Shown piece after piece: positions 10,455 through 52,017 of a stretch of 64,000 bases of DNA. The translations under genes and the position numbers were made by a program. Below the pieces are notes generated by a model. The model ran no database searches. It saw only the letters and a program-made list of their open reading frames with translations, and was not told where the DNA came from. The DNA is taken from positions 39,360 through 103,359 of the forward strand of contig CAVWCX010000033.1 in the NCBI GenBank assembly GCA_963753595.1, written 5' to 3'. This DNA comes from Candidatus Methanoperedenaceae archaeon (GTDB taxonomy: Archaea; Halobacteriota; Methanosarcinia; Methanosarcinales; Methanoperedenaceae). Each line of letters opens with the position of its first letter. The stretch's first letter is position 1.

Positions 10455-10798
10455 TTCCTGAGAATATATAGTATAAATCCGGATATCAAGATAAATTGAA
10501 ATTAGGACAGCGCTTCAATTTGTGTTGGGGGTTTGGTCAATGTGCAACATTCTTTTAATTATATATATACTATTATATATAAATATATAATAATGAGTTG
10601 AATTTGTAAAAGTGTAAAATAATGTAATATGTTATTTCCTGATATTATCCTTTTGACTAAGATTCGGATATATCCGATCACAAATTTGATTATGATTATT
10701 TTACCGAATACTCTCATAGAAGCTTTTTAATATTGAAAACACTATTATAATAAATCGAAAAAGTTATAATATGATATGCTTTTATAAGAGAAAATATT

Positions 10799-38126: not shown

Positions 38127-38244
38127 TACAATTCCTTCCAGATTTATGATATATTCATGTATATGATATACATTATAATGCTCATAAGGGGTTAATAAAC
38201 CTAACCTAGATTTATTAAAAAGTACATGATTATCCAGTTTCGCA

Positions 38245-38294
38245 CTAAGCGCAATCTTTTAACCCATTCATGATCGCCATAATCGAATCAATAT
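38245..38294 (-). pseudogene. Displaced original 3' end of the dus gene (left attachment junction)
   Basis: The minus strand reads IDSIMAIMNGLKDCA*, paralleling the current dus end IDSIMSIMQDILNNSY*. Both share GAATCAATAT. Confidence 0.8.
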
Positions 38295-38354
38295 GTTGTA
38301 AATGATGCACAATATTAAATACTATGGATGTGTATAATGGTTTAAGGTAAAATC

Positions 38355-39428
38355 ATGAAGTTAAGCAAATATCTTGAGTTTAAAGCCGCGCAAGGAATAG
38401 AGGGTGGGACACTGAATAACTACGAATATGTATTGGGATACTTGAACAAATGGAAGGATTTAGAGCAGATCACCAAAGACAACCTAATTTCTTTTTTCAA
38501 TAAGAACGAATGGAAAGAAAAAGCAGATTCTACAAAAAATTTACATGCGATCATAATAAAAACATACTTTAAGGACACTGGAAAGCTTGAGGTGGTGGAC
38601 TGGATAAAAATGAAGTCCTTAAGAGAAACAATCAGCCCAGAGCAAACATTAACCCCAGATGATATTAACAAGCTATTAGAAGTCGCAGATAACCCTTATG
38701 ATAAGGCACTTATAGCATTCCTCTATGATGCAGGATGCAGGATAAGCGAAGCACAGCGCATCAAGTGGAAAGACTTACAGGATACAACGGATGGCATTAT
38801 CGTATCTATCCCCACCAAGAAGACCTCGGCCGGCTACAGAAAGGTTATTTTGCCTTTTTCCTCCCAATACCTCAAGAACCTCAAAATTTATTCCTATGGC
38901 GAAGATAATGATTTTATTTTTAGATGGAATTATCGAGCCCATGCTCAGCGTCTCCAGAACATAAGAGAGAAATCAGGAATACAAAAGCCGTTTACCTGCC
39001 ATAAGCTGAGACATGCAGCAGCAACAGAGCTTGTATTGCAGGGAGTCCAGGAAGGAATTATTAAAAAGAAGATGGGGTGGAGTCCTTCAAGTCCGATGAT
39101 AGCCAGGTACACGCACCCCAATGATGATGCAGTGATCCAAGCAACCTTAAAAATACATGGTAAAGAACGAGATGTTAGGAAGCCTATAAACATAATCCAG
39201 CCTGAAAAACCATCGCTCACAGATGCTTATGGTCAATTTTTCAAGATTCAAGAGGAAAACCAACAAACGAAAGAACAATTAGAAAATCTAATTGTAATAA
39301 ATAAAAAACACATGAACGAGAACAGCGAGCTTAAAACACAAATGGAGAAGCAAGCGGAAGATATGGAGACCATGAAACGCCAGATGGAGCTTATCACGGC
39401 AGCAATGGCAGCGAAGCAATTATTTTAA
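38355..39428 (+). CDS. Tyrosine integrase with C-terminal coiled coil
   Basis: Catalytic set LYDAGCRISE, HKLRH, MGW and ARY. Confidence 0.93.
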   Translation: MKLSKYLEFKAAQGIEGGTLNNYEYVLGYLNKWKDLEQITKDNLISFFNKNEWKEKADSTKNLHAIIIKTYFKDTGKLEVVDWIKMKSLRETISPEQTLTPDDINKLLEVADNPYDKALIAFLYDAGCRISEAQRIKWKDLQDTTDGIIVSIPTKKTSAGYRKVILPFSSQYLKNLKIYSYGEDNDFIFRWNYRAHAQRLQNIREKSGIQKPFTCHKLRHAAATELVLQGVQEGIIKKKMGWSPSSPMIARYTHPNDDAVIQATLKIHGKERDVRKPINIIQPEKPSLTDAYGQFFKIQEENQQTKEQLENLIVINKKHMNENSELKTQMEKQAEDMETMKRQMELITAAMAAKQLF

Positions 39429-39584
39429 GATGAACTGGAATAAGTGACTAGGTTGAGAATTCAAAGGATGTGTGCAAGCCATATATTGTGTTTTCTCTGT
39501 TATAAGCTCTAATATACCTTATTTTTTCTTTCTGAACAAGCCCCCGTGTTATTGCCAGAAAAAGACGTTCATTTCATTTTTATA

Positions 39585-39608
39585 ATTAGTATAACATGTT
39601 ATACTAAT
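39585..39608. promoter_or_regulatory. Perfect 24-bp palindrome, candidate operator upstream of the RHH-to-MCM operon
   Basis: ATTAGTATAACATGTTATACTAAT is its own reverse complement. Confidence 0.6.
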
Positions 39609-39680
39609 ATAACAAATATAATTTGTTTATGCTCTTTTTATATTTGACTAAATTCCTATGTAGGCATAGGTGAATATGCC

Positions 39681-39881
39681 ATGAAACAAGTCAATATCCA
39701 AATTTCAGAAAAAACCCTAGATCGGGTCAAAAAAATTGCGAAAAATGAAGAGTTACCATATACCTCCCTTATTCGCAATTGGGTAGTACAGAAAACAAGA
39801 GAATATGCACCCGCTGAAACCCTGGCAAGAGAACCAGCGGAATGCAGCCACATCAATCAAGGAAAGATGCAGCATGAGTAA
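39681..39881 (+). CDS. Ribbon-helix-helix (CopG-like) DNA-binding protein
   Basis: MKQVNIQISEKTLDRVKKIAKNEELPYTSLIRNWV, with a GGTGA RBS. Confidence 0.8.
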   Translation: MKQVNIQISEKTLDRVKKIAKNEELPYTSLIRNWVVQKTREYAPAETLAREPAECSHINQGKMQHE

Positions 39882-40029
39882 ATACAAATCATCTTTTATT
39901 AACTTTGCTAAGACACGGATGGAAACGCAGGGTGATGAAATCCGCGAATGGGCAACGTCAGACAATCCCCTGTTATCACAAATTTGTAGGGAGGTAATGG
40001 AGGCGGCAGGGCAAGGGGAGCAAAAATGA
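39874..40029 (+). CDS. Small hypothetical protein
   Basis: MSKYKSS...WATSDNPLLSQICREVMEAA. Overlaps both neighbours. Confidence 0.55.
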   Translation: MSKYKSSFINFAKTRMETQGDEIREWATSDNPLLSQICREVMEAAGQGEQK

Positions 40030-40364
40030 AAGGGAAAGCTCCGCCCGTTACCAGCGGGCAGAACTCGAATATAGATTCTAATGTTAAGATTGTACCTTCT
40101 GCTAATAAAGACGTAAGGAGGATTTTTTTACAAGCATTGAGGACCCGGGCATATTCCAAAAATAAGATTATCCCATTCCCGGAGGTAAAACGGATTCTGT
40201 CGTGGTGGAGAGTACAAAAACAAGAACGCGACGAGCTACTTTATGATTTAAAGGATGAAGGGTTTTTGGAAATCATACCTTTTCATGGTATCAGGATAAA
40301 ACCAGCAGCCGATATAAAAAAAGCAGAGGGTGGGGAAAGGGAAGAGAAAAAGGAGGAAAGATGA
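40026..40364 (+). CDS. Hypothetical protein, possible winged helix
   Basis: Coupled ORF (ATGA overlaps) with IPFPEVKRIL...LKDEGFLEIIPFHGIRI. Confidence 0.65.
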   Translation: MKGKAPPVTSGQNSNIDSNVKIVPSANKDVRRIFLQALRTRAYSKNKIIPFPEVKRILSWWRVQKQERDELLYDLKDEGFLEIIPFHGIRIKPAADIKKAEGGEREEKKEER

Positions 40365-40729
40365 GAACAGAAAGGCTAAGGGGATTATTTTTACAATTCT
40401 TGAGGGAAAACGAGCTAGAGAATGCGCTTATATGCAATAGTTCTATCACAATCGCTCAGGACGAATCACTGAAATATGAGCGTATTGACAAATACAACGT
40501 GCTTTTTTTGACATCCGAAGATCTCAAAAAATTGCTTGCGTTCTGTGATAAGCATGGCATAAGCATATGGTTTGGCGCAGATAAGCTTTGTATCGGTTTC
40601 AATTACAAAGGAAACATGCGACTTTCAGCTTATGATTCTGTCTTGCCGGTGAGATCTGCAGCTGTTCCCAGGGAAGACAGAAAAGACGATCAACTGAGAG
40701 CGGCGTACTCAACCGCCCTTACCGTCTAG
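40361..40729 (+). CDS. Hypothetical protein
   Basis: 122-aa ORF with an AGGAGG RBS and ATGA overlap. Confidence 0.65.
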   Translation: MRTERLRGLFLQFLRENELENALICNSSITIAQDESLKYERIDKYNVLFLTSEDLKKLLAFCDKHGISIWFGADKLCIGFNYKGNMRLSAYDSVLPVRSAAVPREDRKDDQLRAAYSTALTV

Positions 40730-40746
40730 TTTTTTTATGAGGGATT

Positions 40747-41283
40747 ATGAAAAATATAATAGTTGTGATCAATGCCAGCAGCATTCTTGAAGAAATACAA
40801 GCTGGGAATGAATTTGGCCGTAGAAAGTGGGAGAACAATTGCCACAGCATAAAGGCTTCCTACAAACAGAAGACGAGCCGGATGGAAAAGAACGGCAAGG
40901 CGTATGAATATACGAAATGGTACAGGGAAAAAGATACGGGTGGGCTTGAATGTGTCGGGAAAGATGAACCGGACTGGAAGAAGATCCTTCCAAAAGAACC
41001 TGAAATGAGACAGATCGCTGCAAAGACGTATGAAGGTCATCTGATAATGGAACAGAAAGATTATGAGGCTCATATTGGCCTGTTCCTGGATTATCTTGTA
41101 TTCAGGCTTGAAGACTGCAAGAACCTGTTACATCCGCTATACAAGAATCCTGAGAAGGCACTCAAAGGCGATTCTGTCCACGGGGGTGGGGTGAGCTCGG
41201 CAGGATCGCAGAGATCCGGAGGGACAGAAAATGAAGATGACACGTACCAGGATGAGTTGGATACAGAAGAGCGATTTCTATGA
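40747..41283 (+). CDS. Hypothetical protein
   Basis: 178-aa ORF coupled to MCM, containing KNGKAYEYTKWYRE...CVGK. Confidence 0.7.
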   Translation: MKNIIVVINASSILEEIQAGNEFGRRKWENNCHSIKASYKQKTSRMEKNGKAYEYTKWYREKDTGGLECVGKDEPDWKKILPKEPEMRQIAAKTYEGHLIMEQKDYEAHIGLFLDYLVFRLEDCKNLLHPLYKNPEKALKGDSVHGGGVSSAGSQRSGGTENEDDTYQDELDTEERFL

Positions 41284-43544
41284 AGGGGAAGAAATCTGCG
41301 TTTAACGGTGAAGATAGTGTATTATATTCTCTTGGAGCAAGCGGAGTCACGGAAAAGACACTTATTGAATCGTCCCGCGCCTGGGAAAAGATAAGCACCG
41401 CGCACGACAAAAGCATTTCCACTGCTAAAAGGATGTTTTACAATGCTGTTGATAGGGAGTTTCTTTTTAAGGATAGCAGCACACCTTCATCATACGGATT
41501 CACCAAAGCGGGATATGAACGCTATCTTTTGTTAAAAAAGCGTGACAGCGTGCTTAAAGGGGCTTCACGAACATTTGAAGATTTTTTAAGGCTGTATTAT
41601 TGGGATGTTCTTTTGGATACTGTGAATAACCGCGCTAAATATTTAGAAATAAAATTTAGTGATATTGAGTTGGGGCTTGGTAATAAGTTTGCTGAGACAT
41701 TGATCGATTCCCCGGACCAAACTCTCCAGGAACTGGATAATATATTCAATGATATGGTTTTACCTACAGATGACGATTACCGCCCTTCATTGAGTATTGT
41801 TGGCCTGGGGAAAACTAACATAGTTACCGTTGAAGGTGCAAGGGACGAGAAATTATTACGAAAATTAATAGAAGTAGATGGCCGAGTGATGACGCAGTTT
41901 GAGGTAAAACCCCGGTTTATGCAAGTGGCATATCAATGCCGGCGATGCGGCCATATCACGATTGTCCCCCAGACAGCTGGGAAGATTATAGAGCCATTTG
42001 AGTGTGATAATGATGTGTGTGGACGTAGAGGGCCGTTTATTCCCGAATTCTCAGAATCTACACGGATCAACTCACAGGAAATAATTTTAGAGAACGAACG
42101 TGGGCAGGTTCATTTATCCGTTATTCTGGACGATCCTTTATGTACTTCAAATTATGAAGTTCGGGATGCTAAGCTCGTTCGTATCGTAGGGGTGTTGGAT
42201 TTTAGGAGAGTGGATACTAAAGGAGGTGTTGAGTATAATTTTGTTCTCAGGGCCAAAAGCATAAGATTGGCAGAGGATAATAATGTTGAGCCGCCCACGA
42301 CAGAAGAGATTGGGCTTTTTGAAACATGGGCAAAGAACCCGGCAGATCTCAGGGCTCGCCTTATACAAAGCGTGGCTCCCCATATACATGGTCGCGAAAC
42401 TGAAAAGGATGCTTTGTGTTTGAGCTTGTTCTCGGACTGGACATGGAAACTTCCAGCAAAAAAAATGCTAGTCAGAAGCAGCCTGCATATATTAATTATA
42501 GGTGATCCTGGAACTGCAAAATCGGAGATGTTAAAAGATCTCGCAAAGATCGCGCCCAAAGCGATCGAGGGGCAGGGAGAGAATGCTACTGGAAGGGGAT
42601 TAAGCAATTCTGCAACACAAGAGAATGGGATCTGGGTTATAAAAGCGGGCCTGTTTGCTAAAGCAGATGGTGGGATAGTTGTCCTGGATGAACTGGATAA
42701 AGTTAAAAAAGACGATCTTGTTGCTTTGAACAGCATCCTCGTTTCTCAGAAACAGATCGCGGATAAGGCGGGACTGCATGTAGAATTTGATACGCGTTGT
42801 GCGGCTGTTTGTGGTGCTAACCCCCTGAACGGCCACATTGATGAATACGAACCTATCATTAAACAATTGGGATTGAACAGCTTCCTTTTCCAAAGGTTTG
42901 ATCTCGTATTTGTAATTAGAGACAAGCCGGATACAATAGAAGATGGACTGATATATGATAAAATACATGCGGCTTGCAACAAAGCCTCCCTTGGTGATTC
43001 TGTTTTGAATCGAGTTATCCCTCTTGAACTGATTAAAAAATATATTTTATACGCACGCACAAAACCAGAACCTACCATCGCCCCTGATGCAAACGACATT
43101 TTGAAAAGTTATTATCTTAATATCAGGTTAGGGATTGGGATTAAGAAGGAAGAGATTTTAAATTACCCTGCTATATCCGCCAGGACTGCGGCTGCCCTCA
43201 ATAAACTCGCTAAAGTTATAGCACGCAGAGAACTCGCCGCCGAAGCTACTGTGGAACATGTTCAATATGCTATCTCATTATATAGAGAAAGTATCAAAAG
43301 TGTGGGTATGGGGAAAGAAGAGGATATGAATGCACTTGACCTCGGTGGGACAGGATCCCAGTATAAGAGGATCGAAGATATCAGAGGTGTGTGCATTAGG
43401 CACAAATCCGAAGGCGGGGTGACTATATCACAAATATCCAAGTGGACTGGATATCCTGAAGGCGCTGTGGCTAATATTGTTTCTCGCTGGAAAACCAGCG
43501 GAGAACTAATCGAAACAAGCCAGGATAGGTATAGAATAGTTTGA
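41280..43544 (+). CDS. mcm: Element-encoded MCM replicative helicase with N-terminal extension
   Basis: Zn finger CRRC..CDNDVC, Walker A GDPGTAKS, Walker B VVLDELDK, ANP, Arg finger QRFDL and ISART. Confidence 0.95.
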   Translation: MKGKKSAFNGEDSVLYSLGASGVTEKTLIESSRAWEKISTAHDKSISTAKRMFYNAVDREFLFKDSSTPSSYGFTKAGYERYLLLKKRDSVLKGASRTFEDFLRLYYWDVLLDTVNNRAKYLEIKFSDIELGLGNKFAETLIDSPDQTLQELDNIFNDMVLPTDDDYRPSLSIVGLGKTNIVTVEGARDEKLLRKLIEVDGRVMTQFEVKPRFMQVAYQCRRCGHITIVPQTAGKIIEPFECDNDVCGRRGPFIPEFSESTRINSQEIILENERGQVHLSVILDDPLCTSNYEVRDAKLVRIVGVLDFRRVDTKGGVEYNFVLRAKSIRLAEDNNVEPPTTEEIGLFETWAKNPADLRARLIQSVAPHIHGRETEKDALCLSLFSDWTWKLPAKKMLVRSSLHILIIGDPGTAKSEMLKDLAKIAPKAIEGQGENATGRGLSNSATQENGIWVIKAGLFAKADGGIVVLDELDKVKKDDLVALNSILVSQKQIADKAGLHVEFDTRCAAVCGANPLNGHIDEYEPIIKQLGLNSFLFQRFDLVFVIRDKPDTIEDGLIYDKIHAACNKASLGDSVLNRVIPLELIKKYILYARTKPEPTIAPDANDILKSYYLNIRLGIGIKKEEILNYPAISARTAAALNKLAKVIARRELAAEATVEHVQYAISLYRESIKSVGMGKEEDMNALDLGGTGSQYKRIEDIRGVCIRHKSEGGVTISQISKWTGYPEGAVANIVSRWKTSGELIETSQDRYRIV

Positions 43545-43687
43545 TAGATATTGATTTATTAAAAATCGTTATCTAATAACTTTTTATTTATATAAATATA
43601 TAATATGTGTTTTGATTTTCGTTTGTTTTTAATTTTTCGCTATGCATAGAGCTTAAAAACTGTTTTGTTGAGATTACACAATACCGT

Positions 43688-43834
43688 TATCTATGAACTT
43701 AAAACAGTCTGAAGATGTGAGATTGATAAAAACCGATATCTATAAACTTAAAACAGTCTATCGATGTGAGATTGATAAAAACCGATATCTATAAACTTAA
43801 AACAGTCTATCGATGTGAGATTGATAAAAACCAT
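43688..43834. repeat. Three 49-bp tandem repeats (iteron-like, candidate origin)
   Basis: Unit TATCTATAAACTTAAAACAGTCTATCGATGTGAGATTGATAAAAACCGA starts at 43688, 43737 and 43786. Degenerate copies and AT-rich DNA flank it. Confidence 0.9.
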
Positions 43835-44365
43835 TATCCTTTAACTCGAAAAAAAATAAGATGAGATTAGATGATATTGATGATAACAGCTATCTATAGA
43901 CTGAAATTACCGCACTGTGTAAAAAAAACCGAAATCATTTTTGTTTTTCAATCTTTTAGAAATCTAAAATTTCAAAAACAACTCCACCCCCCTAAAAACA
44001 CACAAAACATCAAAAAGCAGATGTAGTAGGTAATATCACACAAATAGACAGAATGAGATTGATGAGATTAACCCATCGCTAAATATTGATATTTTACAGT
44101 TCGCTATACAGCGGGTTTTTTTGTAAGAAATCAATAACAGGTTATAGTATCAAGTTTAATCCCATACCAATAGGCTGTTTAATGTTTACTGATAATTGTA
44201 TTTAAGAATATCACTTTAAAGAACACTCTCTGTATGATAAGATCGCATGGACAGAAAAATATCCCGTTCTTATTCATGTCATTGTTCATGAACAATAACT
44301 ATAAATATAATAACATCATAATAGATGTTTGCCTTCCTCGGAGGGTATTAAAGGAGTAATAAAAA

Positions 44366-44800
44366 TTGGTAGAATCTAAAAGACAAAAAATCGAAAAGTT
44401 GTTGACTGAGGGCAAAAGCCCAGAAGATATCGCAAAAGAAACAGACTGCACGGTGAGATATGCCTATGAGATCAAGGCATTGAATGAGCAACCCAAACCC
44501 AATGAGCCGACTGTAAAAAATCATCTTGTTGGAATCGAAGGTACTTTAAAGAAACTTTCCGGTGATATTAATCTAATACGGAAATTTGAGCAAGATCCGA
44601 TAATAGTCTGCCCATGCTGCAATGATCCGATAGATCTATCAATTGCAGTGATCTGTGAAGAGTGTAGGGTTCTGCTTTGTATAGGCTGCATTGAGAATCA
44701 TAAGCAGCCCGATACTGCAAGTACTTGGAATCCATTTGAAGATAAATCGTTATGTCAAAAATTCCAAGAACAAATACAGTCAACAATAAGAGGGAAATGA
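44366..44800 (+). CDS. HTH plus zinc-finger protein
   Basis: N-terminal LLTEGKSPEDIAKETDCTVRYAY HTH and CPCC..CEEC...CIGC..H. A 16-bp palindrome ATTGTTCATGAACAAT lies at 44281-44296. Confidence 0.75.
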   Translation: MVESKRQKIEKLLTEGKSPEDIAKETDCTVRYAYEIKALNEQPKPNEPTVKNHLVGIEGTLKKLSGDINLIRKFEQDPIIVCPCCNDPIDLSIAVICEECRVLLCIGCIENHKQPDTASTWNPFEDKSLCQKFQEQIQSTIRGK

Positions 44801-44801
44801 A

Positions 44802-44972
44802 TTGAAGATAGAAATGCATGATGCTTTTAGGCCAATACTCGAATCGATGATTGACGGTGTAGGGATAAAGAGTATTTCTGAAGCTCTAAACCTGCATCTT
44901 TTAAGGACCTTGAAGTCTGTAAAATCAAAGAGAATACAGCAGAAAATAGGAGCTAAAGCAGAACCAACATAA
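44802..44972 (+). CDS. Possible small RHH-like protein (absent from the ORF track)
   Basis: TTG start directly after the previous stop: LKIEMHDAFRPILESMIDGVGIKSISEALNLHLLRTLK... Confidence 0.4.
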   Translation: MKIEMHDAFRPILESMIDGVGIKSISEALNLHLLRTLKSVKSKRIQQKIGAKAEPT

Positions 44973-45340
44973 TCGAAGACTAATGCACCATCTTATAAAT
45001 ATTTGAGGTACTAAATTATATTGAATTCAGCACTATATCATGATTCAATTTTTAAGGGGGTATGGGTTTTTCTCCCTCTCTTTTTTTTGATTATGCTATT
45101 TGCCTTCAAAAATTCATTAAATTTGGTATAGTTGGCCTCTTTACCTATCACTATCGGTTGCCTCAAACCATTTGGTATTCAACCTTTAAAAAATAAGATT
45201 TGGTGTATGCATATAGAATGGTTCCGGTATGGCTTGCGTATAACGATTTAGAAAAAGTAAGCTTACTTTATCCCATAGAGCTGGTATAGGTTGCCAATAG
45301 CGAAAAGCATTTGAGAGGAAATGACAGTTAATAAATAAAT

Positions 45341-47191
45341 ATGAAAGAAAGATCACAGCAAATAGATGAAGTGGATGAGGCTATCATTAAGTGTATCCAA
45401 GCACAGCCTCAGAAACTAAATGATATCATTACAATCACCAGATTAAATTATGAAACGGGGAGAAAACGATTAGAAAAACTGAAAAGGTACGGCCACATCG
45501 CAAGCCCTAATTTTGGCTTTTATGCGATCACAAAACCAGGCTTAAATCTGCTAGAAGTCAGATCGCAAGGAGTGGTTACTCCCGATCTCAGAGATGATAA
45601 GATCGAAGAACTAATCAAGCTTCTGCCCACAGCACCACACCAGGCATTTTTTAGGCTGCTTGTAAGTGGAATTATAGCTAAATATTGCTTATTTGATCAT
45701 TTCAACGATGGCTATCCTTCTTTCATTATCGGAGGTAAAACAAAAGCCTTCAAGACATCAATAGCGAAGCTGATATGCCTTTTATTTGGGTTCGATAATG
45801 GCCTTATACATAAGTTGTTCTCTGCTACTGCTGGTGAGTTTGGGATAAGGAGAGTATCGGCAGGAAATGGACAATTCAGACCTGGAGCATCACAGTATTT
45901 CAATGAGCCTTTCATATGTCTGGATGAGCTTGATAAGACCACATCAAACGATCTGAAAAGGGTATTGCTGAATTATGCAGATGGCGCCAGAGAGTTTCCT
46001 ATCGAGGGCGAACAGGTCATTAATCATTGCACCACATTGATCACGCTAAACACTAACGGTGATGTGGATGCAATAAAGTCTTTGGGAATCCACGAGGCTT
46101 ACATTAGAAGGTCCGTTGTTTTGAACACAGAGCAGCTACTTGGTCAGTTAAAGGATGTTGATCTTATGGCAAAGGCTGTATTCGATTATATGAACACAAA
46201 GACCGCGCCCAGGATAAGATTGGAGACATTAAACTCACGCCTTACCAGATTATCAGAATCCGATTATATGCTTATGCGAAGCCTATTGATGGGGAATATC
46301 GCAGAAGGATATGAGAATCTTGTTGATACGCAGCCCCTGGAGCTGCTTAGCCTGGGTAGAGCTGTGTTGTTAAAAGGGGACATTCGAGAAGCGATATTTC
46401 AGACAACTTATGATAGGTTGTGCTGCCTTGAAACCCTGGGAATACCAAAAGAGGGGTGGCGTAAGAGGATGCAGGTTGAATGGGCGAAGTATCGAGCTAT
46501 TGAGCAGCCCGGCATCATGGAGAAGCTGAACGAGGCTTCGATAAAAGAGGCAGAGAGGGCAACAACCTTAGAGGAAAGAAGAGCAGAACTTCAAAAACAA
46601 AGGGAAGAAAAGACAAATGAAAGACTTGAATTTATAGCGAAAAGGGAGAAGGTAGCTGGCAGGCTAGGAGAAGCAATAGAAGGTTTAAAAACAATCTCAA
46701 AGAATCAATCGTTTGAGCCTCAAGCAAAAACACTTCTAGAGCAGTCCAGATATCTTAGGAGCAGGATTGAAAAGGCAAACAATCAGGAAGAGTTTATGAC
46801 TTATGTTAGACCTTTCAATGATCTTTGGGCAAGAGGAAAGGAAATACTTAATAGCTACAATTCCCGGGATACAAGTCAGAAAATCAAAGATGCCTCAGAA
46901 ACCGATGGAAGGCCCCTTGAATTCTATTACGGTCAAATTAACCGCCCCACCCCTTTTGAAGTCAGCGAAGGCAATCATAAAAATGCTAATGGGTGGCGTA
47001 TAAAGTTTAATTCACAAATACTGGAAATAATCAAAGGCAGTCAACGCTGGGCATTTCTAGCAGAGACAGGATCCTTTAAACTGGGGACTAAGTATGCCTT
47101 ACACATAACGTCAATAGTCCGCAGTCCAGATCCACGAATCATCTTAGAAGTTGGAGATGCCAAAGATCAGTCAGAAGCAGCCATGATATAA
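45341..47191 (+). CDS. Winged-helix plus P-loop (AAA+-like) ATPase plus coiled-coil protein
   Basis: N-terminal wHTH (RLEKLKRYGHI...YAITKPG), deviant Walker A GGKTKAFKTS, Walker B ICLDELDK, sensor-like ITLNT and YIRRS. Confidence 0.8.
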   Translation: MKERSQQIDEVDEAIIKCIQAQPQKLNDIITITRLNYETGRKRLEKLKRYGHIASPNFGFYAITKPGLNLLEVRSQGVVTPDLRDDKIEELIKLLPTAPHQAFFRLLVSGIIAKYCLFDHFNDGYPSFIIGGKTKAFKTSIAKLICLLFGFDNGLIHKLFSATAGEFGIRRVSAGNGQFRPGASQYFNEPFICLDELDKTTSNDLKRVLLNYADGAREFPIEGEQVINHCTTLITLNTNGDVDAIKSLGIHEAYIRRSVVLNTEQLLGQLKDVDLMAKAVFDYMNTKTAPRIRLETLNSRLTRLSESDYMLMRSLLMGNIAEGYENLVDTQPLELLSLGRAVLLKGDIREAIFQTTYDRLCCLETLGIPKEGWRKRMQVEWAKYRAIEQPGIMEKLNEASIKEAERATTLEERRAELQKQREEKTNERLEFIAKREKVAGRLGEAIEGLKTISKNQSFEPQAKTLLEQSRYLRSRIEKANNQEEFMTYVRPFNDLWARGKEILNSYNSRDTSQKIKDASETDGRPLEFYYGQINRPTPFEVSEGNHKNANGWRIKFNSQILEIIKGSQRWAFLAETGSFKLGTKYALHITSIVRSPDPRIILEVGDAKDQSEAAMI

Positions 47192-47240
47192 ATTCTGTCT
47201 AGGTCCCGATCACAGGCCTGGCCTGCCTGGGGGACTGAAA

Positions 47241-47378
47241 TCAATGGGATTTTATTAATATACCATCATCAGCTTCTATGATTTCAACGTAATCCTTAAG
47301 ATGATATTTTCCCCTCAATTCTTTCGGTATTGTTAACCTTCCCTCTTCCGTGATTGGTCTTATGATCTTTTCTGCCAT
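47241..47378 (-). CDS. AbrB/MazE/SpoVT-family DNA-binding protein, 45 aa (absent from the ORF track)
   Basis: MAEKIIRPITEEGRLTIPKELRGKYHLKDYVEIIEADDGILIKSH. Confidence 0.85.
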   Translation of the reverse strand: MAEKIIRPITEEGRLTIPKELRGKYHLKDYVEIIEADDGILIKSH

Positions 47379-47473
47379 ATCTCGTTATAGTGAATGTTAT
47401 AGGCAATAAGCCTTTTTGTCAAATTGACGAAAACCTTTTTATAGACATATAGCCATATCGTCTAATAGGCGAA

Positions 47474-47761
47474 ATGCCTTTAGGTGAAAATATGGAAATA
47501 AACACAAACGATAAACGCGAAATGGATGAGTTGGTATCAATAGAAATCAAAATATCACGGAGACAAGCTGAACTTATGGCTCTTTATTCTAAAATTGCTC
47601 GGAAAACTCCGGATCGACTATATCATCGCATTATGTCAAAAGGAATCGCTGAGATTATCGGGGCAATAAAAGCATTACCATTTAGTAACATCGATGCGTT
47701 CAAAGAGGTCATGACCGGAATTCCTGAACACTACCCAACCCTAGATGAGGAATCTAAATGA
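47474..47761 (+). CDS. Hypothetical protein, possibly RHH-like
   Basis: ORF abutting the second recombinase. AGGTGA RBS precedes an internal ATG. Confidence 0.6.
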   Translation: MPLGENMEINTNDKREMDELVSIEIKISRRQAELMALYSKIARKTPDRLYHRIMSKGIAEIIGAIKALPFSNIDAFKEVMTGIPEHYPTLDEESK

Positions 47762-48945
47762 TTATAGGCCAGGACATTAAAGATTTCTCGGAAGATTGCA
47801 GGTCAAGGGGATTAACACAACATACTATAGCGACTTATAAATCAAACGTCGCTACTTTCCTTAATTATGTAGACAATCCCCTGAATGTTGATATTTCTAC
47901 TCTCCGCAAATTTCTGGACCATCTCAAAGAAATGGAGTTCAAAAGAGGTAAGAGCATTAAAAAAGGGGTTCATCCTAAAACAATCAAGGCTTATTTTTCA
48001 GCCATTAGCACTTATTATGATTTTCTTGTTTTTAATCGGCAGCTCGAGATTAGCCCCATCCCATCATTTACCAAGCGATATTTATCCAGGATAAAACAGC
48101 AATATAATGGAGAGAATACCAGGCAGCTCATCACCATCGATCAGATGAAACAGCTCATCAACCTTGATATGCCCATTCAGGATAGAGCGATCCTGATGGT
48201 CCTGGTAAAGACAGGGATCAGAAGAGGTGAATTACTCTCCATTGATTCAGGCGATCTAAACCTTGAGAAAAAAGAAATCATTCTCAAACCCAAAGCAAAA
48301 AGAACAAATCGGTTAGTTATTTTTGATGATGAAACCGCCCGGGTTTTGCAGTTGTTTCTTGATTGGAGAAAAACCAGGACAAAAACCGATGCACTCTTTA
48401 TTTCACCCCTTGGTTTAAGATTGAATAAGGAGGTCCCCAATGAGATCTTAGCCAGGCATGGCAGCATATTAGGCTTACATGATCCAAATGGCGCCCTTAA
48501 TCAGAAATTAACACCACACTGCATGAGACACAGCTTTACAACATATTTAAGACGTGAAGGAATGCCAAGGGAGATGATCCAGGAACTCAGAGGAGACCGG
48601 CGCAAGGATGCAATAGATATCTATGACCACATTGACCTATCAGAGTTAAAGGATCGTTATTTTAAATGCATTCCCCGGCTTTTGAATACAGAACCAAAGC
48701 TTCATGCACATGATTTGGATCCACAGAAGACTAGAAGCCAGAATCTAGGGGGACATCCAAAGGAGGCAACCCAAAACAGAACAAAAGCAATCCTCTCTTT
48801 ATTGGACACTGAAAGATTAACAATCGGTCAAATTGCCAAGATTTTGAAAGAAAAGAATACTCTGGTTAAAAAAGCAGTATATAGAAACTTGAAAAATGGA
48901 AATATCCAGAAAGATGATTTAGGCAGATATTATAAAAAAAGGTAA
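47758..48945 (+). CDS. Second tyrosine recombinase (RGD variant) with C-terminal HTH
   Basis: KTGIRRGEL, TPHCMRH and LRGD..DIYDH, plus C-terminal LTIGQIAKIL...VKKAVYR. Confidence 0.93.
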   Translation: MIIGQDIKDFSEDCRSRGLTQHTIATYKSNVATFLNYVDNPLNVDISTLRKFLDHLKEMEFKRGKSIKKGVHPKTIKAYFSAISTYYDFLVFNRQLEISPIPSFTKRYLSRIKQQYNGENTRQLITIDQMKQLINLDMPIQDRAILMVLVKTGIRRGELLSIDSGDLNLEKKEIILKPKAKRTNRLVIFDDETARVLQLFLDWRKTRTKTDALFISPLGLRLNKEVPNEILARHGSILGLHDPNGALNQKLTPHCMRHSFTTYLRREGMPREMIQELRGDRRKDAIDIYDHIDLSELKDRYFKCIPRLLNTEPKLHAHDLDPQKTRSQNLGGHPKEATQNRTKAILSLLDTERLTIGQIAKILKEKNTLVKKAVYRNLKNGNIQKDDLGRYYKKR

Positions 48946-48999
48946 AAAGGTAGAGGTCAGATAGCAGCCAAAGCTTCATAAAATGAGTTAGAATCGCAA

Positions 49000-49150
49000 G
49001 GACAGAAAAGAGGGGGAGGGGGTTTTCTGTCCTCTCCTTCAGCAGAGATCTCCCAGATATCGTGAATTTTACAGGACAGAAAAGTTATGATCTGGTTTCT
49101 GTCTACCCTGTTAACTGTTAAGCTGGCCAAGGATCGTTGGGGGATAGAAA
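49000..49150. repeat. GGACAGAA/TTCTGTCC motif array 0
   Basis: GGACAGAAAA at 49000 and 49074, TTTTCTGTCC ending 49032, TTTCTGTCT ending 49104, and GGATAGAAAA at 49142. Confidence 0.75.
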
Positions 49151-49274
49151 AGAGGAGTGGATAATCCTTGTTTTATTAAACCACAAGTGCGATATTAAAA
49201 CCCCCTCAGGACGCAATATTAGGCAGATCGCACATAGAATAGGTTATAAGTTTACATAACATATTATGCTAATT

Positions 49275-49418
49275 ATGAGTGAAAAAACTGCTGTTAAACA
49301 ACCTAAGAAGATCGGAGGGAGTCTTATGCTGGCCTTGACTGGATATGTCAGGACAGACCAGTTTTACAAAGTCGAGTGCTCTGATAAGAAAATTATCATT
49401 TCCCCCATAGAACTCTAA
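49275..49418 (+). CDS. Small AbrB-like protein, 47 aa (absent from the ORF track)
   Basis: MSEKTAVKQPKKIGGSLMLALTGYVRTDQFYKVECSDKKIIISPIEL. KIGGS and KKIII match the AbrB domain at 50154-50441. Confidence 0.65.
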   Translation: MSEKTAVKQPKKIGGSLMLALTGYVRTDQFYKVECSDKKIIISPIEL

Positions 49419-49447
49419 AATACTGTTCGTATTGTTACGATTGTTTT

Positions 49448-49480
49448 AAACCCTTCTCAGGATGCGATATGAGGCACGAT
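49448..49480 (+). repeat. 33-bp direct repeat, copy 1
   Basis: AAACCCTTCTCAGGATGCGATATGAGGCACGAT, identical at 50693-50725. A degenerate copy lies at ~49198-49228. Confidence 0.92.
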
Positions 49481-49520
49481 TTTTGCACCCATGGGAACAT
49501 ATAAAAATATTATACTGCTT

Positions 49521-49704
49521 TTCTGTCCTTCCGGAGATCTCTGCAGCTGATATCCTGGAGGACAGAAATTTTATGATTTTAATTTCCTGTCCTGAGCATT
49601 CCGGGATATCCAGCAGGATCTCGGAAAGGCCCGGCGGACAGAATAGTCTATTTAATATTCTGTCCTTCCTGGCAAGAGCAGCTGGGATCAGGACCCGGAC
49701 AGAA
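49521..49704. repeat. TTCTGTCC-N-GGACAGAA array 1 (three units)
   Basis: GC-rich spacers of 31, 43 and 31 bp, separated by AT-rich linkers. Confidence 0.88.
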
Positions 49705-49911
49705 ACAAATAATACATGATGCAACTCCTTTTATTTATATAGCAAACCTTTATTTTAATTTAAGAGGCACAAACTAAAGAGGGGTGGAGTGATCCATCCT
49801 GTGATATTTCCAGTTTTCGGCAAGCATAGGACAGAAAACGCCATAACCAATCGTCATGGATAAGTTTTATATCTATTCAGTATATATTAAGTATATACAG
49901 AGGTTAAAACC

Positions 49912-50157
49912 TTGCAGGACATCCACAGACTCCCCATTCATTTCAAGAAACATGCCGCATTGAGGCTTTTGCAGAGATTTGAGTTAAGCCTGGACGAAGT
50001 AAAGCACTGTATCAGGACAGCAAAAATCATCAAAGCGGTTGAAAAAGAGGGGAACACAGGGATCATGCAAAGTTGCCTCGGAGACTCGAAAATAAAATTC
50101 GTATTCACGATAAGAGAAAAAGCATTATGGATAATAACAGTGGAGGAATGCAAATGA
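49912..50157 (+). CDS. Putative toxin, DUF4258/RelE-like
   Basis: IHFKKHAALRLLQR..SLDEV...IKFVF......WIITV pattern. Overlaps the antitoxin start. Confidence 0.75.
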   Translation: MQDIHRLPIHFKKHAALRLLQRFELSLDEVKHCIRTAKIIKAVEKEGNTGIMQSCLGDSKIKFVFTIREKALWIITVEECK

Positions 50158-50441
50158 GTAAATGCCCTATATGCAGCACGCCCATGCACAAAGAACAAAG
50201 AGAGATCCAGAAAGGTATCTTTGCCCAGGTTGAAGTTTGCCCTAAATGTGAAGATGAGTGGATCGATGAAAAAGAGTATGAAACTTTATATCAACTGTTC
50301 ACTCGAAAAACATTCAAGATAGGTGGCAGCATTGCAGTCAGGATCCCAAAAGAGCTTGCAACCCTCATAGGATTGAAAGAAGGCAGTGAAGTTAAGGTAG
50401 CTGTCAAGGATAAGAAATTAGTGATAGAGCCAGCAACATAA
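50154..50441 (+). CDS. Putative antitoxin: YgiT/MqsA-type zinc finger fused to an AbrB/MazE domain
   Basis: MSKCPIC...VCPKCEDEW followed by FKIGGSIAVRIPKELA..IGLKEGSEV. Confidence 0.82.
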   Translation: MSKCPICSTPMHKEQREIQKGIFAQVEVCPKCEDEWIDEKEYETLYQLFTRKTFKIGGSIAVRIPKELATLIGLKEGSEVKVAVKDKKLVIEPAT

Positions 50442-50444
50442 GTA

Positions 50445-50609
50445 TTCTGTCCCTCCTGGTCTGTGAGATCTATGGCGCCATGTGGACAGAATCATTAATT
50501 TGATTTATGTCCTGATCCGGATCTAAGATCTCAGCTGCAGCACGGACAGAAATTAAATTATTTTCTGTCTTCCCGGGGAGATCCTGCAGATCTTCCGGCA
50601 TGGACAGAA
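50445..50609. repeat. TTCTGTCC-N31-GGACAGAA array 2 (three units)
   Basis: Spacers 50453-50483, 50513-50543 and 50571-50601 are all exactly 31 bp. Confidence 0.9.
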
Positions 50610-50692
50610 AAAGAATAATACATAAGGCAAAGCATTTTTTTAAAAATATTGGGGTGTCAGTATTTTAATAAAAAACATGCAGCAACGGTTTA

Positions 50693-50725
50693 AAACCCTT
50701 CTCAGGATGCGATATGAGGCACGAT
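50693..50725 (+). repeat. 33-bp direct repeat, copy 2
   Basis: Identical to 49448-49480. Confidence 0.92.
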
Positions 50726-51051
50726 CTATATGATGGTAAGGTAGTTTGTAGCTACATAATAGAGGGAAAAACCCGGATCTAGGAAAGAGTTGACAATTTC
50801 TTCTTAGATATGGCCGGATTTCTCAGACTAGGCCAGCCCGGAGGATCCGCGAAGATCCGGGAAAGTTGGTCTAGGTAATTTTTACTGGTTTGTATTCATG
50901 CGAACTATCCAGAACATATAAAACTAATTTATATTTTTACAAAGTAAACTCATGGTTTTAGTTATATAATAGTGAATGGATATTTAAAACAAGGATTTAT
51001 AGTGCTTCGATTGCATTTCACCATAAAATAAACAATTTTGCATAATCGTTA

Positions 51052-52017
51052 TCAATAGGAATTATTTAAAATATCCTGCATTATAGACATGATAGAATCA
51101 ATATCATGGGTCTTGTTTATTTTCACACGAACCTGTTTTACATTTTCCATACCTTTTGTGAACCATTGGGCATTGCGCTTCAGATCATTGAAGGTAAGCA
51201 TAGAAAAATTGCAGCATAGTTCTGTGTACTCAAAAAAATCAGCCAATCTTTCTCGTTGATCCTGGGAAGGCAATATTTCCCCGGTTTTCAGGAAATAAGA
51301 GATCTTCTTAAAAATAAACGGATTGCCTATCGCTGCCCGCCCGATCATAAGCCCGTCGCACCCGGTATATTCAAGCACTTTTTGCGAGGTTTTTTCATCA
51401 GATATATCCCCGTTCGCTACGACCGGGATAGATACCTCACTTTTAATGCCTTTGATGGAAACAAGATCGGATTTCCCCGAATAACCCTGCTTTTGCGTCC
51501 TGCCATGGACTGTAATCGCATCAGCACCAGCTTTTTCGATAATTTTTGCGATTTTTAATGTTTCATCAAAGTTATCTAATATTCTTATTTTAGCTGTGAG
51601 CGGTACATCCAGGGAATCCGAAAGAGTTTGTATGATATCCCCTATTAGTTCAGGTTTTTTTAATAGTTCTGATCCGCATCCGTTTTTTATAACGCCCTGT
51701 GCCGGACAGCCAAAATTTATGTCAATGAGTTGTGGCCCGTATTTATCCTGCAAAAATATCGCGGATGCAGCAAGATTTGCTGGAACCGAACCCATTAATT
51801 GAATTCCCATTGGTCTTTCATCCGCACAGGTAAATCCCCTTTCTATGCTTTTGCGGCTTTGCCTCACTACCGCTTCAGAAGATGTCATCTCGGAATAAAC
51901 TAAAGATGAACCGTACTTCCTGCATAGCAGCCTGGATGGGAGGTTAGTAACACCTGACATCGGCGCAAGAACCAGATTTCCGTCAAGTTTCAATTTTCCA
52001 ATGGTCAAAGAACTCAT
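51052..52017 (-). CDS. dusB: tRNA-dihydrouridine synthase (DusB/Nifr3 type); last ~14 codons appear element-supplied
   Basis: LAPMSGVT, DINFGCP, GSELL, TVHGRT, ANGDI and MIGRAAIGNP motifs. Confidence 0.95.
   Translation of the reverse strand: MSSLTIGKLKLDGNLVLAPMSGVTNLPSRLLCRKYGSSLVYSEMTSSEAVVRQSRKSIERGFTCADERPMGIQLMGSVPANLAASAIFLQDKYGPQLIDINFGCPAQGVIKNGCGSELLKKPELIGDIIQTLSDSLDVPLTAKIRILDNFDETLKIAKIIEKAGADAITVHGRTQKQGYSGKSDLVSIKGIKSEVSIPVVANGDISDEKTSQKVLEYTGCDGLMIGRAAIGNPFIFKKISYFLKTGEILPSQDQRERLADFFEYTELCCNFSMLTFNDLKRNAQWFTKGMENVKQVRVKINKTHDIDSIMSIMQDILNNSY

What the first reader, a model, noticed from the sequence alone, without database searches (positions are those of the whole stretch)
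49000..50609. Undescribed arrays of TTCTGTCC-N31-GGACAGAA units with fixed-length, variable spacers
About 16 copies of one 8-10-bp motif alternate in orientation across three clusters downstream of the second recombinase. Five spacers are exactly 31 bp (49529-49559, 49666-49696, 50453-50483, 50513-50543, 50571-50601) yet differ in sequence. Two others are 41 and 43 bp. These lengths correspond to about 3 and 4 helical turns. GC-rich spacers alternate with short, mostly AT-rich linkers, and some units can fold into long hairpins. It is not CRISPR-like. Hypotheses are a phased protein-binding array (centromere or recombination accessory site), ssDNA hairpin recombination substrates, or a processed small-RNA array.
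Basis: partly seen in the sequence, partly recalled or inferred. Interest (0 to 1): 0.85.

Follow-up and report, generated by a model that had tools for sequence, protein, structure and literature searches.

The report
Fixed-length inverted-repeat units punctuating archaeal plasmid
Small integrating plasmids of methane-oxidising Methanoperedens archaea carry DNA units of 47 or about 57 bases with identical inverted ends at their gene boundaries, at the points where related plasmids have swapped gene modules, but what recognises them is still unknown.

Summary
The window holds 11 units of TTCTGTCC-N-GGACAGAA. Seven have N=31; the rest have 37, 41, 42 and 43. All 11 lie inside one ~12.8 kb integrated element (about 38295-51060) inserted in the 3' end of a dus gene. 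The pattern is absent from the rest of the 2.9 Mb genome. It recurs in 11 of 48 congeners (named matching records are titled Candidatus Methanoperedens) and in about 14 metagenome contigs. Spacers are 31 nt in 119 units and 40-43 nt in 26.

The two 8-mers vary independently: 65 one-sided changes against 4 compensated. The middles do not fold better than shuffles. So I read them as two half-sites on duplex DNA held at one helical phase, not as hairpins or an RNA array.

Units sit at gene ends, and one type lies in frame inside a conserved gene. Homology between related elements breaks at units (16 of 83 alignment ends, 3.3 expected), including an MCM module swap right at a unit edge.

The binding protein and the function are not identified. 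Tyrosine integrases are the only universal neighbours, but their closest homologues lack units. The units do not fit attC, REP, MITE or CRISPR. I found no description in print.

The parts
40636..40682 (.). Unit, 31-nt spacer (TTCTGTCT...AGACAGAA; inner pair changed on both sides). It lies in the 3' part of ORF 40361-40729.
41172..41229 (.). Unit, 42-nt spacer ('D type', G-run plus GAGCTC). It is read in frame inside ORF 40747-41283, just upstream of MCM. Homology to the close relative in G008 ends within about 6 nt of its 3' edge.
47193..47239 (.). Unit, 31-nt spacer ('B type'). It lies between the stop of ORF 45341-47191 (+) and the stop of the AbrB-like ORF 47241-47378 (-). G008 has two units at this place (53-nt indel).
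49000..49032 (.). Outward-facing pair GGACAGAA-N17(G-rich)-TTCTGTCC, 54 nt after the stop of the second integrase.
49025..49081 (.). Unit, 41-nt spacer.
49097..49149 (.). Degenerate unit, 37-nt spacer (TTCTGTCT...GGATAGAA).
49521..49567 (.). Unit, 31-nt spacer ('A type'). First unit of a three-unit cluster.
49585..49643 (.). Unit, 43-nt spacer ('C type', with a GGGATATCC palindrome). Middle unit of the cluster. The same three-unit order recurs in other elements.
49658..49704 (.). Unit, 31-nt spacer ('B type', inverted). Third unit of the cluster.
50445..50491 (.). Unit, 31-nt spacer. It starts 3 nt after the stop of the Zn-ribbon/AbrB antitoxin ORF.
50505..50551 (.). Unit, 31-nt spacer (TTATGTCC...GGACAGAA).
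50563..50609 (.). Unit, 31-nt spacer (TTCTGTCT...GGACAGAA).
44249..44256 (-). Orphan half-site. A second orphan is at 49829-49836.
38249..38294 (.). attL of the carrier element. It is a direct repeat of attR (51061-51106, in the 3' end of dus) and is not a unit.
51061..51106 (.). attR of the carrier element.
38355..39428 (+). Tyrosine integrase 1 (Xer-like), next to attL.
41280..43544 (+). MCM helicase of the element.
47758..48945 (+). Tyrosine integrase 2 (Xer-like, not IntI), with a C-terminal extension of about 80 aa.
49912..50441 (+). Toxin-antitoxin-like pair (DUF4258 plus Zn-ribbon/AbrB-MazE) flanked by unit clusters. The same pair is flanked by units in a different element (L033).

Best explanation
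The units are cis-acting sites read on duplex DNA. Each has two independent 9-bp half-sites (W-TTCTGTC-Y) in inverted orientation. A G+C-rich spacer of 31 bp, or of 41-43 bp (one helical turn more), holds them at one helical phase. They punctuate gene and module boundaries of a family of tyrosine-integrase-bearing integrative plasmids of Candidatus Methanoperedens, which replicate with either an MCM or a PrimPol module. They are the places where these elements gain, lose, invert and exchange modules.

Shown: confinement to the elements; conservation of the ends and of the length across deeply diverged elements; independent variation of the two ends; position at gene ends and in one gene's linker; coincidence with homology breakpoints and unit-precise indels.

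Inferred: a dimeric or higher-order protein bridges the two half-sites, probably with the spacer bent or wrapped. Recombination at the conserved ends, by an element integrase or by short-homology recombination, produces the mosaicism. The binding protein is not identified.
For: 1. Specificity. The own genome holds 11 relaxed units, all in the element. The 10 relaxed hits elsewhere have scattered spacer lengths, none of them 31. Sixteen exact 8-mers fall in the 12.8 kb element where about 0.5 would be expected from the rest of the genome.

2. Conservation. Eleven of 48 congeners carry the pattern, 0 of 4 genomes of other genera in the family, and 1 chance-like hit in 343 other genomes of the class. 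Spacer lengths are 31 nt in 66 of 83 units and in 53 more in metagenome contigs. Forty to 43 nt occurs 26 times in total, and nothing falls between 32 and 36.

3. Duplex reading. Of 1104 end-pair positions in 138 distinct units, 65 changed on one side only and 4 were compensated, which is what independence predicts. Mirror pairing in spacers is 4.0 of 15 against 4.8 in the control. Folding z is -0.27. The alignment fold has a covariation term of +2.1. C-type units occur in both orientations after + strand genes.

4. In-situ selection. The D-type unit sits at the same codon in the o178 family in 6 elements whose MCMs are about 36-38% identical. In 5 of the 6 a conserved Cys-rich tail follows it. 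The 8-mers are kept at synonymous sites: both are intact in 3 of these 6 units and carry one change in 3, and the codons TCT GTC are kept in all 6.

5. Junctions. Sixteen of 83 ends of long alignments lie within 15 nt of a unit; the null mean is 3.3 and the maximum 9 in 1000 trials. Window and G008 are about 96% identical up to the D unit and unrelated after it, and MCM is only 36% identical. A 53-nt indel equals one unit plus its linker. Toxin-antitoxin cassettes are flanked by units in different contexts, and one cassette is inverted relative to the integrase.

6. Integrases are the only family found in 10 of 10 unit-bearing element sets. By my reading, 12 of 15 integrase genes that could be judged have a unit within 80 nt of their stop.
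Against: No binding protein is identified. The seven closest homologues of integrase 2 (51-70% identity) have no units and no other recurrent inverted-repeat units within 1.5 kb. Integrase 1's own att site has no TTCTGTC. Integrases of two very different clades (20-25% identity) sit next to the same units. No small DNA-binding protein is shared across elements. Thirty-one bp is too short for the two ends of one unit to synapse without sharp bending. Alignment ends may pile up at units partly because units are conserved islands in diverged DNA. The 10-bp step could simply reflect different sub-families. Spacers are strongly enriched in palindromic hexamers (165 against 42 expected), which this model does not explain. 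No read-level evidence of ongoing recombination was obtainable.
Confidence: 0.4

Rival explanations
1. The units are operator or roadblock sites, working like the stoperators of mycobacteriophage L5 (recalled, not checked here). A repressor or chromatin protein binds them and blocks or insulates transcription between modules of the integrated element. Recombination at units would then be a by-product of shared sequence.
For: There are many copies confined to the element, at gene ends and between cistrons. The half-sites behave as duplex binding sites. An inverted pair would act in both directions. The C-type spacer carries its own palindrome around GATATC in 12 of 14 C units by my count. That looks like a second operator.
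Against: No repressor is shared by the elements. In L028 one unit ends 1 nt before the MCM start, and the D unit lies inside a translated gene, so a constitutive block would silence replication genes. Nothing explains the fixed ruler.
Confidence: 0.2
2. The units act at the RNA level. An 8-bp stem closing a 31-nt loop at mRNA 3' ends or between cistrons would act as a stabiliser, a processing site or a terminator, as REP elements do in bacterial operons.
For: First units of clusters start 0-20 nt after stop codons of long ORFs in at least 14 cases. Clusters fold better than dinucleotide shuffles (z -5.8 and -5.4). The dyad would work for convergent genes.
Against: There is no covariation or wobble bias in the stem: 65 one-sided against 4 compensated changes, with G-T on the given strand 24 times and on the other strand 21 times. 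Middles are no more stable than shuffles. The consensus fold has positive covariation. No unit matches the hairpin-plus-T-run scan. Units are absent from host genes, which is odd for a signal read by host machinery. Rfam gives nothing.
Confidence: 0.15
3. The units are selfish non-autonomous elements of the REPIN or MITE kind. They spread among co-resident plasmids and serve no function for the carrier.
For: They have inverted ends and sub-families, and they form mosaic clusters in alternating orientation. Copy number differs between close relatives.
Against: There are no target-site duplications. No copies lie in the host chromosome. There are no near-identical recent copies within the element: units in the window are 65-77% alike. 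Orthologous copies keep both 8-mers, with at most one change per 8-mer, over deep divergence. No transposase was seen in the elements; the genome was not searched for RAYT-type genes.
Confidence: 0.12
4. The units are replication or partition sites, that is, origin-recognition-box-like initiator sites or a centromere.
For: Inverted half-sites flank A+T-rich linkers. G-runs lie next to two sites (41172 unit and 49000 pair). The D unit is next to MCM.
Against: Units are dispersed over at least 6 loci of a 12.8 kb element. A separate 49-bp iteron array downstream of MCM is a better origin candidate. Units also occur in a PrimPol-type element without MCM. No ParA or ParB gene lies inside the element; the MinD-like gene is left of attL.
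Confidence: 0.05

Closest known systems
Integron attC sites with IntI
   Same: Conserved inverted ends flank a variable middle. The sites lie at the 3' ends of small cassettes, including toxin-antitoxin cassettes, near a tyrosine recombinase gene, and they lie at junctions of gene exchange.
   Different: The middle has no hairpin pairing. The integrases are Xer-like, not IntI: the integron-integrase model scores 36-56 bits against a cut-off of 265. Length is fixed. Units occur in tandem multiples, in both orientations, all over the element and inside an ORF. The paper on archaeal integrons (bioRxiv 10.1101/2022.02.06.479319; passages read) requires the single-stranded fold and the IntI-specific domain, and it does not mention Methanoperedens.
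REP / BIME / REPIN elements of bacteria (recalled)
   Same: They are dyad units with sub-types, combined in mosaic clusters of alternating orientation at gene ends.
   Different: The units here are not genome-wide (0 outside the element), do not form stable hairpins, and show no covarying stems.
Stoperators of mycobacteriophage L5 and similar element-wide operator families (recalled)
   Same: Many copies of one short conserved site are confined to a mobile element, near gene boundaries.
   Different: As I recall them, stoperators are single asymmetric sites with an orientation bias and a known repressor. Here the sites come in inverted pairs at a fixed 31- or 41-43-bp spacing, and no repressor is known.
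Shufflon sfx sites with Rci, and res sites of Tn3-family resolvases (recalled)
   Same: Several short inverted repeats lie next to a recombinase gene. The three-unit cluster with spacers 31 / 41-43 / 31 recalls three res subsites with different spacers. One cassette is inverted between two elements.
   Different: There is no read-level evidence of inversion. Spacers are far longer than in res. No serine recombinase was seen.
Short recombination motifs bordering variable regions in Sulfolobus conjugative plasmids (recalled; no paper found)
   Same: It is a dispersed short motif in archaeal plasmids at which variants arise.
   Different: As I recall it, that motif is a single direct repeat, not a ruler-spaced inverted pair.

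Membership tests
Integron attC | Folds as a single strand into a hairpin with paired R''/R' and L''/L' boxes. | tested here: not met
   Only the terminal 8-mers are complementary. Spacer mirror pairing is 4.0 of 15 against 4.8 in the control. Folding z is -0.27. There is no covariation.
Integron attC | Adjacent IntI integrase with the IntI-specific extra domain. | tested here: not met
   TIGR02249 scores 55.9 and 35.9 bits against a cut-off of 265. The best model is archaeal XerA-type, itself below its cut-off.
Integron attC | One site after each cassette in a co-oriented array. | tested here: inconclusive
   Units do follow cassettes. They also occur in runs of 2-4, in both orientations and inside ORFs.
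REP/BIME/REPIN | Many copies scattered through intergenic regions of the chromosome. | tested here: not met
   No unit lies outside the element in 2.89 Mb.
REP/BIME/REPIN | Imperfect palindrome forming a stable stem-loop. | tested here: not met
REP/BIME/REPIN | Cognate RAYT (Y1 transposase) in the genome. | not tested
   None seen in the element. The genome was not searched.
MITE | Terminal inverted repeats plus target-site duplication. | tested here: not met
   Flanking direct repeats of 2-6 nt are no more frequent than in shuffled pairings.
CRISPR array | Identical direct repeats, unique spacers, cas genes or a leader. | tested here: not met
   The motif alternates in orientation. Linkers vary from 4 to 23 nt. 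'Spacers' form families shared between genomes. No cas domain was found in the element's ORFs scanned. The only CRISPR-DR hit is a sub-threshold match outside the units.
Intrinsic terminator | G+C-rich short-loop hairpin followed by a T-run. | tested here: not met
   None of the 8 terminator-like sites in 38200-51100 is a unit, and 8 is no more than in shuffles.
att site of the element's integrase | Direct repeat at both element-host junctions. | tested here: not met
   Empty sites in 5 congeners place the junctions at 38249-38294 and 51061-51106, and these contain no TTCTGTC.
Xer/dif-type core site | Inverted arms around a fixed central region of 6-8 bp, with a chromosomal copy. | tested here: not met
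   Outward-facing pairs have gaps of 4-23 nt. No convincing chromosomal site with these arms exists.
Stoperator-like operator family | Cognate repressor encoded by the element. | tested here: inconclusive
   No small DNA-binding protein is shared across elements by iterative search. Fast-evolving proteins could escape it.

The most novel reading that the evidence does not exclude
The units are the recombination sites of a so far undescribed gene-module exchange system of archaeal plasmids. They would be duplex, dyad, ruler-defined sites of 47 or about 57 bp at which Xer-like integrases, perhaps with a DNA-bending host protein, insert, delete, invert and swap cassettes and even protein-domain modules. 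In role this would be an archaeal counterpart of integrons and shufflons, with a different site architecture.
Probability: 0.15. Interest if true: 0.85.

Novelty: new variant of a known kind. Interest (0 to 1): 0.6.

Why it matters
Methanoperedens archaea oxidise methane anaerobically, and little is known about how their small mobile elements evolve. These units give a sequence handle on that. They mark where modules such as the replicative helicase, integrases and toxin-antitoxin pairs are exchanged, and one unit is kept inside a gene at the joint between two protein parts. If a protein can be shown to bind or cut them, they would define a new site architecture for cassette exchange in archaea and a possible genetic tool for a group that has none. 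If instead they turn out to be operators or RNA elements, they would still be the first element-wide cis-signal described for these plasmids.

Tried and rejected
Hairpin or attC-like folding of single units: rejected.

Conserved RNA structure of three-unit clusters: rejected. The consensus fold gives only the invariant end stems, with a covariation term of +2.1. In the window the A-type unit does pair with the C-type unit next to it, but this is not conserved elsewhere.

Rfam: 0 matches at gathering scores in the whole window. At E up to 5 in 40000-51100 there are 5 weak hits, none on a unit.

Target-site duplications: none.

CRISPR: my crude array finder found no array in the own genome. The assembly is a draft, so this is weak.

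Stop-codon avoidance in spacers: TAA and TAG are depleted but TGA is not, so there is no coding signal. The three units of one cluster are read in three different frames of the accidental ORF 49462-49719.

Restriction-site link: the enriched hexamers are only mildly under-represented genome-wide, with observed/expected ratios of 0.6-1.0.

Integrase specificity: the closest homologues of integrase 2 lack units, and they lack any alternative recurrent inverted-repeat unit.

A shared small DNA-binding protein: not found.

Orientation of sub-families relative to genes: only 12 cases could be judged, and they were mixed.

Gene-junction classes from crude ORF calls: noisy. Masking the units biases distances to 3' ends, so I do not rely on those figures.

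Circular contigs: none found.

Known plasmids and phages: no match. Virus protein families: no hit for the element's unknown ORFs.

Viral contigs: 6 single matches, which I read as chance. About 140 would be expected by chance for 16 fixed bases in 596 Gb (my estimate). Only the Methanoperedens-titled records, and one 4.5 kb contig binned elsewhere, look like this family.

RNA evidence: no RNA holder was listed. The runs laid were contigs only. A run that is merely guessed to be RNA covers the toxin-antitoxin pair and the unit at 50445 but not 49294-49730. I draw no conclusion from this.

Literature: searches found no description of these units. One search returned only primer-like occurrences of the 8-mers among the 15 of 4,574 papers listed.

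Full report
What is there. The 8-mer TTCTGTCC and its reverse complement occur 17 times in the window, where 2.1 would be expected (maximum 7 in 100 shuffles). The full pattern TTCTGTCC-N25-50-GGACAGAA occurs 5 times against 0 expected. Allowing one mismatch per 8-mer, the window holds 11 units. They are at 40636 (31-nt spacer), 41172 (42), 47193 (31), 49025 (41), 49097 (37), 49521 (31), 49585 (43), 49658 (31), 50445 (31), 50505 (31) and 50563 (31). Three units lie upstream of the reported region. Spacers average 60% G+C in a genome of 40.5%. Linkers and flanks are A+T-rich.

The carrier. Two flanks of the window are adjacent in five congeners (G040, G006, G037, G046, G008), overlapping by about 44-46 nt. 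Everything between about 38295 and 51060 is therefore an insertion into the 3' end of a dihydrouridine synthase gene. Its att repeats are at 38249-38294 and 51061-51106. The element encodes a Xer-like tyrosine integrase next to attL, a CopG-like protein, three unknown proteins and an MCM helicase. A 49-bp iteron array follows, then a 616-aa protein without family, an AbrB-like protein, a second Xer-like integrase and a DUF4258 plus Zn-ribbon/AbrB pair. It matches no plasmid or phage in the collections searched, and its unknown ORFs hit no virus family. The att repeats contain no TTCTGTC, so the units are not the integration site.

Specificity and spread. In the own 2.89 Mb assembly the exact pattern is found only in this element. 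Ten relaxed matches elsewhere have spacers of 25-50 nt and none has 31. In the family, 11 of 48 congeners carry the pattern and 0 of 4 genomes of the other three genera do. With N fixed at 31, 10 of 48 congeners match, and only 1 of 343 other genomes of the class does, with an A+T-rich spacer that looks like chance. Named records with the same loci are titled Candidatus Methanoperedens. A two-unit pattern found 20 metagenome stretches, of which about 14 are this family. Across window, genomes and metagenomes, spacers are 31 nt in 66 + 53 units and 40-43 nt in 14 + 12 units. I also saw three of 29 nt, two of 30, one of 37, and one of 25 in a true element. None falls between 32 and 36.

How the units are built. 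The half-site consensus is W-TTCTGTC-Y, followed by a weak nnCnnG. That consensus is partly fixed by my search rule. The two ends vary independently. Among 1104 paired positions in 138 distinct units, 1033 are consensus, 65 changed on one side only, 4 changed on both sides to a Watson-Crick pair, and 2 changed on both sides to a non-pair. All four compensated cases are the inner pair, and four is what independent change predicts. One-sided changes give G-T on one strand as often as on the other (24 against 21). Spacers do not pair in mirror register (4.0 of 15 against 4.8 between units). They fold no better than shuffled spacers (mean z -0.27). Some clusters fold better than clusters with shuffled spacers (6 of 34 below z -2), because neighbouring units can be inverted relatives. 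An alignment fold of seven three-unit clusters recovers only the invariant end stems and a small invariant hairpin, with positive covariation energy. I conclude that the ends are read as two half-sites on duplex DNA. The two length classes differ by one helical turn, which fits that reading but does not prove it.

Spacers are not free sequence. They fall into sub-families that recur across genomes: A with CCGGAGATCT and CTGCAG/CAGCTG; B with GGTCCCGATC and GGCC; C with 41-43 nt and a palindrome around GATATC; D with 41-42 nt, a G-run and GAGCTC. They are very rich in palindromic hexamers: 165 against 42.5 expected, with AGATCT 29, CTGCAG 24, TCCGGA 20 and GATATC 17. The copies are related by descent, so these counts are not independent. 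Genome-wide these hexamers are only mildly avoided. I have no good explanation for the enrichment. A three-unit order of 31, C-type, then an inverted B-type recurs in at least five elements.

Where they sit. First units of clusters begin 0-20 nt after the stop codon of a long ORF in at least 14 cases. In the window this is 1 nt after the 616-aa ORF and 3 nt after the antitoxin ORF. Units also lie between cistrons: in L028 one unit ends 1 nt before the MCM start. The D-type unit lies inside the o178 gene. In six elements it is read in the same frame, beginning Ser-Val. In five of the six it is followed by a conserved Cys-rich tail; the window's copy has a different tail. The MCMs of five of these elements are only about 36-38% identical to the window's. 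Even so, the 8-mers are kept at synonymous sites: both are intact in 3 of the 6 units and carry one change in 3, and the codons TCT GTC are kept in all 6. This shows selection on the DNA or RNA signal in place, which a decaying selfish insert would not show. No unit matches a hairpin-plus-T-run terminator scan.

Rearrangements at units. The close relative in G008 is about 85-96% identical to the window in three blocks. One block ends within about 6 nt of the 3' edge of the D unit. Beyond it the DNA is unrelated and the MCM is only 36% identical. A second block ends at the unit at 47193-47239, with about 28 further aligned bases. There G008 has two units and a different, inverted integrase gene, and the 53-nt difference equals one unit plus its 6-nt linker. 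G008 has two units after integrase 1 where the window has none, and one unit where the window has three at 50445-50609. The toxin-antitoxin pair of the window recurs at 78% identity in L033, again between units but in another context. An MqsA-like two-gene cassette is found in three elements next to three different units. In one of them it is inverted relative to the integrase, and the integrase-proximal B-type spacer is inverted too. Over all long alignments between loci, 16 of 83 ends lie within 15 nt of a unit, against a null mean of 3.3 and a maximum of 9 in 1000 trials. This is partly expected if units are conserved islands, so I treat the individual cases above as the stronger evidence.

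Who might read them. Tyrosine integrases are the only gene family present in 10 of 10 unit-bearing element sets. MCM and o178 are in 7 and o122 in 6. One element has a PrimPol instead of MCM. By my reading, 12 of 15 integrase genes that could be judged have a unit within 80 nt of their stop, several within 3 nt.

Against an integrase-specific site, there are 19 places in the genus with a homologue of integrase 2. Units lie within 1.5 kb in only 4 of them: the own genome, G019, G006, and a degenerate unit in G007. A fifth, in G002, is doubtful. The seven closest homologues (51-70% identity) have none, and they have no other recurrent inverted-repeat unit. Both integrases are Xer-like and not IntI. 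No small DNA-binding protein is shared. The genome has no dif-like site with these arms. The recognising protein therefore remains unknown.

Verdict. The most likely reading (0.4) is a duplex-DNA, two-half-site, fixed-phase recognition site that punctuates modules of a family of Methanoperedens integrative plasmids and serves as their recombination junction. Rivals are operator or roadblock sites (0.2), RNA 3'-end or intercistronic elements (0.15), selfish REPIN/MITE-like elements (0.12) and origin or centromere sites (0.05). The units are not members of the attC, REP, MITE, CRISPR, terminator or att families, each of which fails at least one tested defining feature. I found no description in the literature I could search. 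RNA data were not usable.

Noticed in passing
window 43563-43851: A tandem array of 49-bp iterons (3 full copies at 43669-43851, with related 20-nt boxes at 43563 and 44744) lies just downstream of the MCM gene. It is a likely replication origin of the element.
   Followed up: no
window 49192-49229, 49443-49480, 50688-50725: There are three direct copies of a 38-nt sequence; the last two are 97% alike. The outer two bracket the segment holding two unit clusters and the toxin-antitoxin pair. The G008 relative has only one copy and lacks 50537-50826.
   Followed up: partly
window 38249-38294 and 51061-51106: These are the att repeats of the element, in the 3' end of the dus gene. Five congeners have empty sites.
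   Followed up: yes
window 50913-51031; also window 10550-10633 and G000:C37:18032-18147: The element's right-terminal ~120 nt recurs elsewhere in the same genome and in several congeners. This suggests further related elements that share an arm but carry no units.
   Followed up: no
loci L043, L048, L069, L083, L085, L096, L104, L109 and others: Iamia and Microthrixaceae (Acidimicrobiia) genomes carry many 47-nt perfect hairpins with the same TTCTGTCC...GGACAGAA ends and covarying middles. This is a REP-like family that shares the ends and the length with the archaeal units, but unlike them folds fully. It may be coincidence, because I searched for exactly this pattern.
   Followed up: no
L174 1691-2117: One metagenome contig has a tight tandem array of nine units with the same ends, 25- or 31-nt near-identical middles and 5-nt linkers. 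It looks like an unrelated repeat family.
   Followed up: no
window 45341-47191: This 616-aa ORF matches no Pfam, NCBIfam or PHROG family. By eye it has an N-terminal winged-helix-like stretch and Walker A/B-like motifs. It is 89% identical in G008.
   Followed up: partly
window 40747-41283 compared with L027, L028, L164, L170, L178: The o178 family has a conserved Cys-rich C-terminal motif after the unit-encoded linker. The window's copy lacks it and instead overlaps the MCM start.
   Followed up: partly
window 47233-47267 compared with L026 3979-4013: The last ~9 codons of the AbrB-like gene in the window and of an integrase gene in G008 are homologous DNA next to the unit. Two different genes share one 3' end.
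   Followed up: partly
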